From a virus (Duplodnaviria > Heunggongvirae > Uroviricota > Caudoviricetes), in IMG/VR virus record IMGVR_UViG_2718218139_000003: a stretch of 37,100 nucleotides of DNA, one strand, 5' to 3'. Position 1 is the first letter of the stretch. Each line of letters begins with the position of its first letter. The notes beneath the pieces are model-generated. The model was given only the letters and a program-made list of their open reading frames with translations. It did not search any database and was not told the origin of the DNA. Made by a program: the position numbers and the translations under genes. Positions 2,044 through 3,062 of the stretch are shown piece after piece.

Positions 2044-2835
2044 TTATGGTTCGATCGCCGTTTTGAGCCGTTGTGTTGCTACATCAAAATAATGATCACT
2101 GGTTTCTATACCAATAAATTTGCGTCCTGCTTTCAGTGCAGCCACACCCGTTGTCCCTGACCCCATAAAAGGATCAAGGACTGTTCCGCCACTATTCACA
2201 GTCCTGACCAGTTCCGCCATTAGTTCTTCTGGTTTTCCGGTCGGGTGCATTTTCTTTGACGGGATAACCGGGAACGTCATGCAGCCGTCGAACGGTCCCG
2301 AAGGCGATTTATCTAAATGGCCTTTGCTGCCCCAGACGATGTATTCGCACTGATGCCGGAAATACCCGGTATGTGGTGTTCGTGACCCCCTCCCTTTGTT
2401 CCACGCAATGATGCCGCGCCATGTAAAGCCACTGGCCTGAAACGCATCGGTTAAAGCTGGTAGTTGTCGCCAGTCAGTAAATACCAGGGCATAACCGCCC
2501 GGCCTGACTGCGCGGTGTGCCTGTGCCATCCATAATTGTGTCCAGTAAGCCCACGAACGGGCGTCCATGTTTTCACCCGCGAACCCATCAAAGCGGTGAA
2601 GGTTCTCGCCGTTCAGATATTTTGCATGGCTGCCCTGGTTGGTGCGTCCGGCCTTGTGTGTCGCACCCGAACTGTAAGGCGGGTCAGTGATTAAGGCATC
2701 AATGCTTTCTGGCTCAATCAGCGGCAATATTTCCAGCGCATTCCCACGACAGAGCGTGGCATTGTCAGTCTGATAAACCTTAGTGTGTTCCGGTGTATGT
2801 GCTGGTTGGTGCTGGATTGCGATCCCCACGGTCAT
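2044..2835 (-). CDS. DNA methyltransferase, beta-class (N6-adenine or N4-cytosine); DPPY motif N-terminal to the F-x-G-x-G AdoMet motif
   Basis: ALITDPPYSS at about residue 50 and VLDPFMGSGTTG near the C-terminus; 263 aa. Confidence 0.8.
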   Translation of the reverse strand: MTVGIAIQHQPAHTPEHTKVYQTDNATLCRGNALEILPLIEPESIDALITDPPYSSGATHKAGRTNQGSHAKYLNGENLHRFDGFAGENMDARSWAYWTQLWMAQAHRAVRPGGYALVFTDWRQLPALTDAFQASGFTWRGIIAWNKGRGSRTPHTGYFRHQCEYIVWGSKGHLDKSPSGPFDGCMTFPVIPSKKMHPTGKPEELMAELVRTVNSGGTVLDPFMGSGTTGVAALKAGRKFIGIETSDHYFDVATQRLKTAIEP

Positions 2836-2977
2836 AACTCCTCATGTGTGTGGGGGGCTCGATGGCTCTCGTTATCTGGTTAAGTGTTTTGCAGCGCGGA
2901 CATTTTATTTCAATGTAGTGAAATGAGGCGCGGGCAAGTAGTTTGTTGCAATTTTTGCATCGTACATTTTGCGTCAT
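2780..2977 (-). CDS. com: Com-like zinc-finger translational activator (phage Mu Com family), overlapping the methyltransferase start
   Basis: MTQNVRCKNCNKLL...IEIKCPRCK reproduces the CxxC-16-CxxC spacing and surrounding residues of Mu Com; RBS agagg upstream of ATG; 3' end overlaps the downstream gene start as com does with mom in Mu. Confidence 0.65.
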   Translation of the reverse strand: MTQNVRCKNCNKLLARASFHYIEIKCPRCKTLNQITRAIEPPTHMRSYDRGDRNPAPTSTYTGTH

Positions 2978-3020
2978 TTGCGGCACCTCTTGTGTGGTTA
3001 CTGCTGCCGATATGATAACA

Positions 3021-3062
3021 AATCGATCGTTTTTATCGATCGGATTTATTGCATCGATCTGT
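3021..3062 (-). promoter_or_regulatory. Cluster of three GATC sites (3025, 3038, 3056), each in a TCGATC context, 45-80 bp upstream of com
   Basis: Seen directly in the sequence; position relative to the com/methylase operon mirrors the Dam-methylation-sensitive region upstream of Mu mom. Confidence 0.45.

What the first reader, a model, noticed from the sequence alone, without database searches (positions are those of the whole stretch)
2044..3062. Mu com/mom-style regulatory architecture driving a DNA methyltransferase
A Com-like zinc finger gene overlaps the start of a beta-class methyltransferase, and three GATC sites cluster just upstream. In Mu, Com unmasks mom translation and Dam methylation of three upstream GATC sites relieves repression. 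Here the same control layout appears to be attached to a methyltransferase instead of Mom, suggesting a methylation-state-gated DNA modification gene, for example for anti-restriction.
Basis: partly seen in the sequence, partly recalled or inferred. Interest (0 to 1): 0.6.

Follow-up and report, generated by a model that had tools for sequence, protein, structure and literature searches.

The report
Com-gated methyltransferase cassette in P2-like prophage
A defective P2-type prophage of E. coli carries a small, widespread, already-annotated cassette in which a phage Mu-type zinc-finger translational activator (Com) and a Dam/OxyR-type GATC operator appear to control a DNA methyltransferase, so it is a real but largely ordinary member of a known kind.

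Summary
On the minus strand lie a 65-aa Com homologue (2977..2780) and an overlapping beta-class DNA methyltransferase (2835/2829..2044). Three GATC sites (3056, 3038, 3025) sit just upstream.

The Mu-style reading is supported by homology at each layer:
- Com has the four-cysteine zinc ribbon and is 57% identical to Mu Com.
- The Com-binding motif CC-N3-GAG abuts a hairpin that buries the methylase ribosome-binding site and start codons.
- The three GATCs have the same 18/13-bp spacing as in Mu Pmom, and agn43 has 19/13. They are the best OxyR-consensus match in the window and are conserved in diverged relatives.

It differs from Mu in three ways:
- The host is a P2-family prophage with no C/Mor activator.
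- The GATCs overlap a predicted activator-independent sigma-70 promoter (TCGATA-16-TGtTATCAT).
- The enzyme is not Mom.

The arrangement is not new. Com+methylase pairs are published for FluMu, Pnm1, B3 and the P2-like Burkholderia phage KS5, and this pair is annotated in RefSeq and in phage Chuche. Across 68 distinct genes downstream of Com homologues (64 from GTDB loci plus the window, Mu and two phages), 36 are D12, 9 N6_N4 and 4 C5 methylases, and 3 are Mom. Verdict: a new member of a known kind. The residual interest is a possible Dam/OxyR switch controlling a methyltransferase.

The parts
3056..3059 (.). GATC-1 (distal), within GATCGAT
   Evidence: It lies 18 bp from GATC-2 in the direction of transcription, the same spacing as in Mu Pmom.
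3038..3041 (.). GATC-2, overlapping the predicted -35 hexamer
   Evidence: It lies 13 bp from GATC-3. The GATC-N9-GATC unit ATCGATAAAAACGAT matches the OxyR half-site ATAGnTnnnAnCTAT at 8/10 positions.
3025..3028 (.). GATC-3 (proximal), in the promoter spacer
3026..3071 (-). Predicted OxyR operator, with two overlapping 37-nt registers (3062-3026 and 3071-3035)
   Evidence: These are the two best matches (15/20) to the OxyR tetramer consensus in the whole window. Mu scores 13/20 and agn43 14/20. OxyR binding itself was not tested.
3012..3039 (-). Predicted sigma-70 promoter: -35 TCGATA (3039-3034), 16-nt spacer, extended -10 TGtTATCAT (3020-3012). The start site is predicted near 3005.
   Evidence: the only promoter-like site in 2700-3600, with 9/12 matches plus TG. 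TG-n-TATCAT is invariant in 18 upstream variants while n varies among T, C and G.
2780..2977 (-). com: 65-aa Com-family zinc-ribbon protein (Cys7, 10, 26, 29). SD AAGAGG lies at 2991-2986.
   Evidence: RefSeq calls the same 198-nt gene.
2855..2868 (-). Candidate Com-binding hairpin GAGC[CAUCGA]GCCC, with motif CCAUCGAG at 2865-2858
   Evidence: Sequence; motif definition from PMC6483171. The homologous hairpin shows strong covariation across 63 distinct sequences (88.5% and 92.3% of cells paired, 0/500 shuffles). The window's own stem has an A.C mismatch at the middle pair.
2824..2855 (-). Translation-inhibition hairpin. CCCCAC (2855-2850) pairs with GUGGGG (2829-2824). An inner helix pairs CAUGA with UUAUG, and the SD GGAG sits in the loop.
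   Evidence: Minimum-free-energy and centroid fold. The same CCCAC/GUGGG stem occurs in Mu and in L003. The energy z-score is only -1.4.
2044..2835 (-). Beta-class amino-methyltransferase (DPPY ... FMGSG), 263 aa from ATG 2835. The probable true start is GTG 2829 (261 aa).
   Evidence: For the GTG start: the SD GAGGAG at 2843-2838 is 8 nt from GTG but 2 nt from ATG; the orthologue L120 has only the GTG; 261-aa forms are called by some annotators.
3115..3140 (-). Intrinsic terminator of the upstream hok-like transcript, which insulates the cassette
   Evidence: 9-bp stem followed by TTCTTTTT.
1916..1935 (.). Approximate attL core, the left end of the P2-family prophage between flk and pdxB
   Evidence: Similarity to phage Chuche starts at 1916. 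Similarity to prophage-free flk-pdxB chromosomes ends at about 1935.

Best explanation
This is a self-contained 'com-modification' cassette carried as an accessory gene pair at the attL-proximal end of a now defective P2-family prophage. Control has two layers.

Transcription. A sigma-70 promoter with an extended -10 is overlapped by three GATCGAT repeats that form an OxyR operator. When the GATCs are unmethylated or hemimethylated, OxyR binds and occludes the promoter. Full Dam methylation excludes OxyR and permits transcription.

Translation. The transcript first yields Com. The methylase ribosome-binding site and start codons (AUG 2835, GUG 2829) are buried in a hairpin. Com binds the adjacent CC-N3-GAG hairpin, which shares one nucleotide with that hairpin, opens it, and allows translation.

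Product. The enzyme is a beta-class DPPY amino-methyltransferase, most likely N6-adenine, of unknown sequence specificity. Its likely use is to methylate phage DNA, and incidentally host DNA, as protection against restriction.

Shown here: the homologies, geometry, conservation, RNA covariation and predicted folds. Inferred: OxyR binding, Dam dependence, Com dependence, the transcription start, the enzyme's target base and sequence, and its biological role.
For: - Com homology and cysteine register.
- Beta-class methyltransferase.
- GATC spacing of 18/13 equals Mu's, L027's Mom cassette and nearly agn43's 19/13. GATC pairs 13 bp apart inside OxyR half-sites are the experimentally established pattern in gtr (PMC2909390).
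- The operator is the best OxyR-consensus match in the window and scores above two verified OxyR operators.
- The GATCs are retained while neighbouring bases diverge in L111 and L120; TG-n-TATCAT is invariant.
- The same operator accompanies com cassettes whose enzyme is Mom (Mu, L027), a C5 methylase (L003) or this beta-class enzyme, so it belongs to the com module and host Dam/OxyR, not to the enzyme.
- GATC clusters upstream of com occur in the enterobacterial loci and are largely absent elsewhere.
- The CC-N3-GAG motif sits directly 5' of the CCCCAC/GUGGGG hairpin, as in Mu.
- The hairpin covaries across 63 sequences.
- The com/methylase overlap is 50 nt in the +1 frame, as for Mu com/mom.
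- Nucleotide similarity to the C5-methylase cassette stops at 2823, right after GUGGGG, so the regulatory module ends at the start codon.
- Published precedent for Com-type control of methylases (PMC3299994, PMC3091744).
Against: - Nothing was measured. OxyR binding, methylation state, transcript start and Com dependence are all predictions.
- A 15/20 OxyR match occurs somewhere in 37 kb in about 10% of shuffles.
- Fold energies are not significantly better than shuffles (z -1.4).
- The window's Com hairpin stem has a mismatch at its middle pair, as does its whole clade.
- Operator-less alleles (L117-L119 with 0 GATC, L007 with 1 GATC) keep intact com and methylase genes, so the operator is dispensable for persistence.
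- The promoter looks activator-independent, and neither a C/Mor gene nor an Ogr box is present. Late-lytic timing, and hence the anti-restriction role, is therefore unsupported.
Confidence: 0.68

Rival explanations
1. An agn43-like epigenetic phase switch operates in lysogens. Because the operator overlaps an activator-independent promoter, competition between Dam and OxyR after replication would create heritable ON (methylated) and OFF (OxyR-bound) lineages. The methyltransferase would then be a phase-variable lysogenic-conversion gene rather than a late lytic anti-restriction gene. This refines the timing and role in the best explanation rather than excluding its mechanism.
For: - The GATC geometry is 19/13 in agn43 against 18/13 here.
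- Sister com cassettes (L008, L151) carry an operator nearly identical in sequence to agn43's.
- The predicted promoter needs no activator, and no C/Mor or Ogr box is present.
- The cassette is insulated by a terminator and sits beside attL next to hok/sok. From my own knowledge, not tested here, this is where P2-like phages usually carry accessory genes.
- The cassette is intact in a prophage otherwise wrecked by two IS600 insertions.
Against: No expression or single-cell data exist. In agn43 the operator lies downstream of the start site, whereas here it covers -54 to -20. It is not known for Mu mom whether expression phase-varies (PMC2909390). Related phage methylases are silent in lysogens (PMC5778455, PMC3299994).
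Confidence: 0.3
2. The GATC cluster acts without OxyR. Dam methylation would change RNA polymerase binding directly, since a GATC overlaps the -35 and another lies in the spacer, as at the IS10 transposase promoter. Alternatively, SeqA would sequester the hemimethylated cluster after replication.
For: GATC-2 overlaps the -35 hexamer and GATC-3 lies in the spacer. Three GATCs lie within 35 bp. From general knowledge, this suits SeqA, which binds closely spaced hemimethylated GATCs.
Against: The exact 18/13 spacing and the flanking bases reproduce OxyR half-site geometry shared with mom, agn43 and gtr (PMC2909390). A purely Dam/RNAP or SeqA mechanism does not require this.
Confidence: 0.12
3. 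The GATCGAT repeats are the cassette methyltransferase's own recognition or binding sites and form an autoregulatory loop independent of host Dam.
For: The three repeats share a 7-mer, not just GATC. Some methyltransferases autoregulate at their own promoters (general knowledge).
Against: The same operator precedes com cassettes encoding unrelated enzymes: Mom in Mu and L027, and a C5 methylase in L003 and relatives. The flanking bases of the 7-mer vary in relatives (GATCaat, GATCggt, GATCgtc) while GATC is kept.
Confidence: 0.06
4. The cassette is an inert passenger in a decaying prophage, so its regulatory features are relics with no current function in this genome.
For: The prophage has lost ogr, D and the 5' part of the sheath gene to an IS600-associated deletion, and gene A is split by a second IS600. 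Some relatives carry truncated methylase genes (L087, L090, L106).
Against: Both ORFs are intact. The exact methylase protein is on 725 contigs and the exact Com on 487. The cassette is 94% identical at the DNA level to that of the sequenced phage Chuche, and the methylase protein is 99.2% identical.
Confidence: 0.1

Closest known systems
Bacteriophage Mu com-mom operon (Pmom with three GATC/OxyR sites; Com; translation-inhibition structure)
   Same: - Com orthologue (57% identity) with four Cys in register.
- 50-nt com/enzyme overlap in the +1 frame.
- CC-N3-GAG motif abutting a CCCAC/GUGGG hairpin that holds the GUG start.
- Three GATCs spaced 18 and 13 bp.
   Different: - The enzyme is a beta-class methyltransferase, not Mom.
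- The host is a P2-family prophage, not a transposable phage.
- There is no C/Mor activator.
- The GATCs lie at about -54 to -20, over the core promoter, instead of about -88 to -54 upstream of the C site. The distance from the last GATC to the com ATG is 51 nt against 78 nt.
Com + methyltransferase operons of Mu-like prophages (FluMu HI1522.1/Hin1523, Pnm1 Nma1821, Hia5, B3 ORF47/48; PMC3299994)
   Same: A com homologue precedes a DNA methyltransferase in the position of mom. Com-type control has already been proposed for these, and the enzymes are silent in lysogens.
   Different: PMC3299994 aligns those enzymes with Dam and M1.DpnII. In this survey D12-class (PF02086) enzymes are the commonest partner of Com (36 of 68). 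The enzyme here is PF01555 beta class. Those hosts are transposable phages. The H. influenzae loci L059, L084 and L085 have 0-1 GATC within 150 nt upstream of com.
P2-like Burkholderia phages KS5 (gp21 Com, gp20 N-4/N-6 methylase; PMC3091744) and AP3 (gp28/gp29)
   Same: Same phage family, same pairing of an overlapping com with a PF01555 methylase. The methylase is 41% identical, and Com hairpins are present.
   Different: The genome slot differs (between tail-fibre assembly and sheath genes there, next to attL here). The enterobacterial GATC/OxyR operator was not examined in AP3; among the loci surveyed it was found essentially only in enterobacterial cassettes.
agn43 (flu) Dam/OxyR phase-variation operator of E. 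coli; gtr of P22/Salmonella (PMC2909390)
   Same: Three GATCs spaced 19/13 in agn43 against 18/13 here. In gtr, GATC pairs 13 bp apart lie inside OxyR half-sites. OxyR-consensus scores are comparable.
   Different: In the K-12 annotation the agn43 leader (IsrC) starts at GATC-I, so those GATCs lie at and downstream of the annotated start. Those systems control surface structures and have no translational activator. Phase variation is unproven here.

Membership tests
Mu-type Com translational-control module | Com protein: a small CCCC zinc-ribbon homologous to Mu Com | tested here: met
   PF10122 E 5.9e-12, above the curated cutoff. BLASTP against Mu Com gives 57% identity, E 2e-14, with the Cys pairs aligned.
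Mu-type Com translational-control module | com lies immediately upstream of, and overlaps, the DNA-modification gene in one operon | tested here: met
   The overlap is 56 nt from ATG or 50 nt from GTG, with no intervening promoter or terminator. Mu's overlap is 50 nt.
Mu-type Com translational-control module | Com target: a short hairpin with CC-N2-3-GAG in the loop and a C-G closing pair, directly 5' of the inhibitory structure (PMC6483171) | tested here: met
   CCAUCGAG lies at 2865-2858 with a C-G closing pair, 0 nt from the inhibitory hairpin. Covariation across the family is strong. Caveat: the window's stem has only 3 of 4 pairs (an A.C mismatch).
Mu-type Com translational-control module | A translation-inhibition hairpin sequesters the SD and start codon of the downstream gene | tested here: met
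   The minimum-free-energy and centroid folds pair CCCCAC with GUGGGG and the AUG with CAU. The same stem occurs in Mu and L003. This is in silico only and the z-score is -1.4.
Mu-type Com translational-control module | Translation of the downstream gene depends on Com | not testable with these tools
   This needs translational fusions with and without com.
Mu Pmom-type transcriptional control | A cluster of three Dam (GATC) sites within an OxyR-binding region upstream of com | tested here: met
   Spacing is 18/13, as in Mu. The OxyR-consensus match is 15/20, the best in the window. OxyR binding was not measured.
Mu Pmom-type transcriptional control | A weak promoter dependent on the phage C (Mor/C family) activator, bound between the GATC region and the -35 | tested here: not met
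   No C or Mor homologue is in the window (best tblastn E 0.38). The segment between the last GATC and the com ATG is 27 nt shorter than in Mu. The predicted promoter has a 16-nt spacer and an extended -10.
Mom (PF25680) DNA-modification enzymes | Homology to Mom | tested here: not met
   The enzyme matches PF01555, not PF25680. Mom-type partners occur in only 3 of 68 com cassettes.
Beta-class N6-adenine/N4-cytosine DNA methyltransferases | PF01555 fold with the catalytic (D/S)PPY motif N-terminal to the FxGxG AdoMet motif | tested here: met
   PF01555 E 3.4e-33. DPPY is at aa 51-54 and FMGSG at aa 223-227. Full-length matches to solved beta-class enzymes. That DPPY favours adenine over cytosine is from general knowledge and was not tested.
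Non-specific adenine methyltransferases (Hia5/Hin1523 D12 class; M.EcoGII) | Homology to those enzymes and context-independent adenine methylation | not tested
   The window enzyme has no PF02086 match. Specificity cannot be read from the sequence.
Dam/OxyR epigenetic phase-variation switches (agn43, gtr, opvAB) | GATCs inside an OxyR site positioned to control a promoter, plus heritable ON/OFF states | tested here: inconclusive
   The geometry and consensus criteria are met. Heritable bistability cannot be tested computationally.

The most novel reading that the evidence does not exclude
The three-GATC/OxyR operator over an activator-independent promoter makes this prophage methyltransferase heritably phase-variable in dam+ lysogens. 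In that case an epigenetic switch (Dam/OxyR) would control an epigenetic writer, with Com adding a translational threshold. Lysogen populations would split into lineages with and without an extra methylation pattern. If the enzyme also methylates adenines in GATC contexts, the ON state would reinforce itself.
Probability: 0.22. Interest if true: 0.65.

Novelty: new member of a known kind. Interest (0 to 1): 0.35.

Why it matters
Only a handful of Dam/OxyR-controlled loci are established (mom, agn43, gtr, opvAB). This cassette would add a widespread one. It is present in 158 of 5,426 complete E. coli genomes, and also in Salmonella.

Its cargo is itself a DNA methyltransferase, so it bears on how temperate phages time or diversify DNA modification. 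It also bears on why prophage methylases are often silent in methylome surveys.

The comparison shows that com, its RNA target and the inhibitory hairpin form a portable regulatory module. The module ends exactly at the start codon. It has been fitted to at least four unrelated enzyme families (D12, N6_N4, C5, Mom). That modularity is useful for annotation and possibly for engineering tightly gated expression of toxic genes.

None of this changes current understanding. It extends a known scheme.

Tried and rejected
- Rfam (E-value mode) on 1800-3600 and on the Mu com-mom region found no family for the Com target or inhibitory hairpin. Only sub-threshold sok and unrelated hits appeared.
- The P2 Ogr-type late-promoter element TGT-N12-ACA is absent from the com promoter region. 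The only nearby match lies inside com.
- A tblastn search for Mu C and Mor found nothing.
- Literature searches for the RefSeq accessions, and for this cassette in E. coli methylome, OxyR or P2 contexts, found nothing specific. Bolker & Kahmann 1989 was not held, so Mu promoter coordinates were derived from the Mu record itself.
- The PDB sequence search gave only distant beta-class relatives (best E 9e-21). This is not informative on specificity.
- The first hairpin alignment (A3) was mis-gapped by MAFFT, so it was replaced by separate gap-free alignments for 6-nt and 5-nt loops.
- GATC clustering statistics alone were judged insufficient (P about 0.25 window-wide).
- Fold energies alone were judged insufficient (z about -1.4).
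- The idea that TAACCACAC, shared with the Mu -35 region, marks the promoter here was rejected. It would place the transcription start inside com.
- Structure prediction and the large protein-database searches were not used, because they would not resolve specificity or regulation.
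Full report
**Context**

The window begins in the E. coli chromosome (yfcJ, flk). It then enters a P2-family prophage inserted between flk and pdxB. E. coli E110019 carries the same junction at 99.8% identity. There it is annotated, in window orientation, as flk, DNA-methyltransferase, Com family regulator, Hok/Gef, ogr/Delta, and tail genes.

The sequenced phage Chuche has the same segment at 94% identity, annotated 'gpCom control of modification' and 'DNA methyltransferase', next to its integrase.

The prophage in the window is defective.
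- One IS600 copy (about 3487-4750) replaces ogr, D and the 5' part of the sheath gene.
- A second copy (about 28269-29532) splits the replication gene A.

The cassette under study is intact.

**Observation**

Everything lies on the minus strand.

- The small ORF (ATG 2977 to stop 2780, 65 aa) matches Pfam Zn_ribbon_Com above its curated cutoff, and the PHROG for gpCom.
- It is 57% identical to Mu Com across the zinc ribbon, with all four cysteines aligned.
- AAGAGG lies 8 nt upstream of the ATG.
- The 263-aa ORF 2835..2044 is a PF01555 N6_N4 methyltransferase with DPPY (aa 51-54) ahead of FMGSG (aa 223-227), i.e. beta class.
- The two genes overlap.
- Three GATCs lie at 3056, 3038 and 3025, each within GATCGAT.

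**Is the GATC cluster more than chance?**

Clustering alone is not convincing. With 96 GATCs in 37.1 kb, a triple within 31 bp appears somewhere in 25% of random placements, and another triple exists at 27299-27314. The case rests on four other facts.

1. In the direction of transcription the spacing is 18 then 13 bp. This is identical to the three GATCs upstream of Mu com (L002 positions 360, 378, 391) and to a Mom-type cassette in another enterobacterium (L027). It is one base off the 19/13 spacing of the agn43 operator in E. coli K-12.
2. A GATC-N9-GATC unit is an OxyR half-site (ATAG-N7-CTAT read as ATCG-N7-CGAT). In the P22 gtr switch, GATC pairs 13 bp apart lie inside OxyR half-sites and their methylation abolishes OxyR binding (PMC2909390).
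3. Scored against the 37-nt OxyR tetramer consensus, the two best matches in the entire window (15/20) are 3062-3026 and 3071-3035. The experimentally established operators of Mu and agn43 score 13 and 14. A 15/20 match arises somewhere in 37 kb in about 10% of shuffles, so the location, not the score, carries the weight.
4. Conservation. Among 35 close relatives in IMG/VR, 31 keep all three GATCs. In the two most diverged copies (L111; L120 with 73% Com identity) the GATCs and their spacing are kept while many bases between them differ.

Exceptions exist.
- L093 has the middle site mutated.
- L117-L119 and L007 have a 31-bp deletion between GATCGAT repeats, leaving 0 or 1 site. All of these keep intact com and methylase genes.

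**Promoter**

The only sigma-70-like site in 2700-3600 is TCGATA (3039-3034), a 16-nt spacer, then TATCAT (3017-3012) preceded by TG.

TG-n-TATCAT is invariant in all 18 distinct upstream variants, while n is T, C or G. This pattern is what is expected of an extended -10.

This places GATC-2 on the -35, GATC-3 in the spacer and GATC-1 near -52. An intrinsic terminator (3140-3115) closes the upstream hok-like transcript, so the cassette is its own transcription unit.

This differs from Mu. In Mu the GATCs lie about 54-88 bp upstream of the start and the weak promoter needs the C activator bound between them. Here the last GATC is 51 nt from the com ATG against 78 nt in Mu. No C or Mor homologue is encoded (best tblastn E 0.38), and no P2 Ogr-type TGT-N12-ACA box is present.

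**Translational layer**

In Mu, Com binds a short hairpin whose loop carries CC-N2-3-GAG. This hairpin lies next to a translation-inhibition structure that holds mom's GUG start (PMC6483171).

The window has the following features.
- CCAUCGAG lies at 2865-2858 with a C-G closing pair.
- It is followed immediately by CCCCAC (2855-2850), which pairs with GUGGGG (2829-2824).
- Inside that stem, CAUGA pairs with UUAUG, burying AUG 2835, and the SD GGAG sits in the loop.
- Nucleotide C2855 is shared by the two hairpins, which suits a mutually exclusive or destabilising switch.

Mu and a Mu-like prophage carrying a C5 methylase (L003) have the same motif, the same stem and the same arrangement.

I took the 5'-most CC-N2-3-GAG after the zinc finger in every distinct Com locus, without regard to pairing. 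This gave 63 sequences.
- The 4-bp stem is formed in 88.5% of cells (6-nt loops) and 92.3% (5-nt loops).
- There are 19 and 52 double-sided changes respectively.
- None of 500 shuffles reaches these values, and slid controls fall to 12-60%.

The window's own stem, like that of its clade, has a mismatch at the middle pair. Fold energies are not significantly better than shuffles (z -1.4). The structural argument therefore rests on homology and covariation.

**Start codon**

RefSeq uses ATG 2835, but several observations favour GTG 2829.
- The SD GAGGAG (2843-2838) is only 2 nt from that ATG and 8 nt from GTG 2829.
- Mu and L003 start at the homologous GUG.
- The diverged orthologue L120 has the GTG but no ATG.
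- Some annotators-aa forms.
- With the GTG start, the com/methylase overlap is 50 nt in the +1 frame, exactly as for Mu com/mom.

**Modularity**

Nucleotide similarity between the window and the C5-methylase cassette runs from within com to 2823 and stops right after GUGGGG.

I examined 68 distinct downstream genes: 64 from 80 GTDB loci with Com homologues, plus the window, Mu, L003 and AP3. Their Pfam assignments are as follows.

| Downstream gene family | Count |
|---|---|
| D12 methylase | 36 |
| N6_N4 methylase | 9 |
| C5 methylase | 4 |
| Mom | 3 |

Two short ORFs not counted in that tally also match methylase families (L010 N6_N4, L036 D12).

GATC clusters upstream of com are essentially confined to the enterobacterial loci. 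The operator thus travels with com and matches the host's Dam/OxyR system, not the enzyme. This argues against the idea that GATCGAT is the methylase's own target.

**What is known**

- Com homologues followed by methyltransferases in place of mom are described for FluMu (Hin1523), Pnm1 (Nma1821), Hia5 and B3. Com-type control has already been proposed for them (PMC3299994).
- The P2-like Burkholderia phage KS5 has gp21 'Com translational regulator' overlapping gp20 'N-4/N-6 DNA methylase' (PMC3091744).
- AP3 is annotated likewise, and its methylase is 41% identical to the one here.
- The exact methylase protein occurs on 725 contigs and the exact Com on 487. They are named 'site-specific DNA-methyltransferase' and 'Com family DNA-binding transcriptional regulator'. 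The latter name is questionable, because Mu Com is an RNA-binding translational activator (PMC6483171).
- 158 of 5,426 complete E. coli genomes carry at least 80% of the 1.7-kb region.

I found no paper in the held library that discusses this enterobacterial cassette or its operator.

**Mechanism and uncertainty**

The best-supported model has two layers.
- Dam/OxyR control at a promoter that the operator overlaps.
- Com-dependent unmasking of the methylase start.

What cannot be decided is when the operon is on. Mu's timing comes from C, which is absent here. An activator-independent promoter under a Dam/OxyR operator resembles agn43 and gtr, which phase-vary. A phase-variable, lysogen-expressed methylase is therefore a live alternative to a late anti-restriction function.

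The enzyme's target is unknown. DPPY suggests adenine, and related phage methylases range from site-specific to non-specific (PMC5778455, PMC3299994). The natural operator-less alleles with intact genes show that the operator is not essential for carriage of the cassette.

**Verdict**

The object is a new member of a known kind, with a promoter arrangement that differs from Mu. Interest is modest. It rests mainly on the possibility of a Dam/OxyR switch controlling a DNA methyltransferase, and on the clean modularity of the com module.

Noticed in passing
window 3160-3540 (minus strand): A hok/sok-type toxin-antitoxin locus lies directly upstream of the cassette. It comprises a 46-aa Hok/Gef-like ORF (3367..3227), a sub-threshold Rfam sok match at 3539-3356 (20.8 bits, E 0.055), and its own terminator at 3140-3115. 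It is annotated Hok/Gef in E110019 and 'MokW-like' in phage Chuche.
   Followed up: partly
window 3487-4750 and 28269-29532: There are two IS600 (IS3-family) copies. Compared with E110019 and Chuche, the first is associated with loss of ogr, gene D and the 5' part of the tail-sheath gene. The second interrupts the replication gene A. The prophage is therefore defective, while com and the methylase are intact.
   Followed up: partly
window 27299-27314: A second, tighter GATC triple (GATCgctGATCgGATC) lies inside a 319-aa minus-strand ORF (26523..27482) that is hypothetical in phage Chuche. It was not examined further and may be chance.
   Followed up: no
L002 570-600; window 2855-2868; 63 distinct sequences from L002-L165: The Com-binding hairpin (GA-NNN-C[C-N2-3-GA]G-N'N'N'-C) is conserved, with abundant compensatory changes, across Com loci from many Proteobacteria and beyond. 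It often occurs in two tandem copies. Rfam 15 has no family for it, even in the Mu region.
   Followed up: yes
L057, L070, L077, L078 (Clostridia/Firmicutes MAGs and Terrisporobacter): In these loci, Com homologues are followed after 29-70 nt by ORFs of 711-905 aa that have no Pfam methyltransferase or Mom domain. Com-family proteins may therefore control other gene types outside Proteobacteria.
   Followed up: partly
L007 (NZ_JBQPOM010000071.1, labelled Vagococcus sp.); L117-L119: These are natural operator-less alleles. A 31-bp deletion between GATCGAT repeats leaves one GATC (L007) or none (L117-L119), with intact com and methylase. The 226-kb 'Vagococcus' contig carries an enterobacterial-type cassette (91% Com identity), which suggests contamination or mis-binning.
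   Followed up: partly
L008, L150-L157 versus L166 330-360: Com cassettes whose com lies at a contig end, as expected at the right end of a Mu-like phage (e.g. from Citrobacter braakii), carry GATCGTTTTTATCGATCGATAAGT. This is almost identical to the agn43 operator GATCGTTTATATCGATCGATAAGC of E. coli K-12. The A/T tract between the two GATCs is inverted relative to the window's copy.
   Followed up: partly
L011-L021, L033 (Methylophaga thiooxydans DMS010): At least a dozen scaffolds of one draft genome hold identical com plus D12-methylase cassettes, several at scaffold ends. This is consistent with a multi-copy transposable (Mu-like) phage or with assembly duplication.
   Followed up: no
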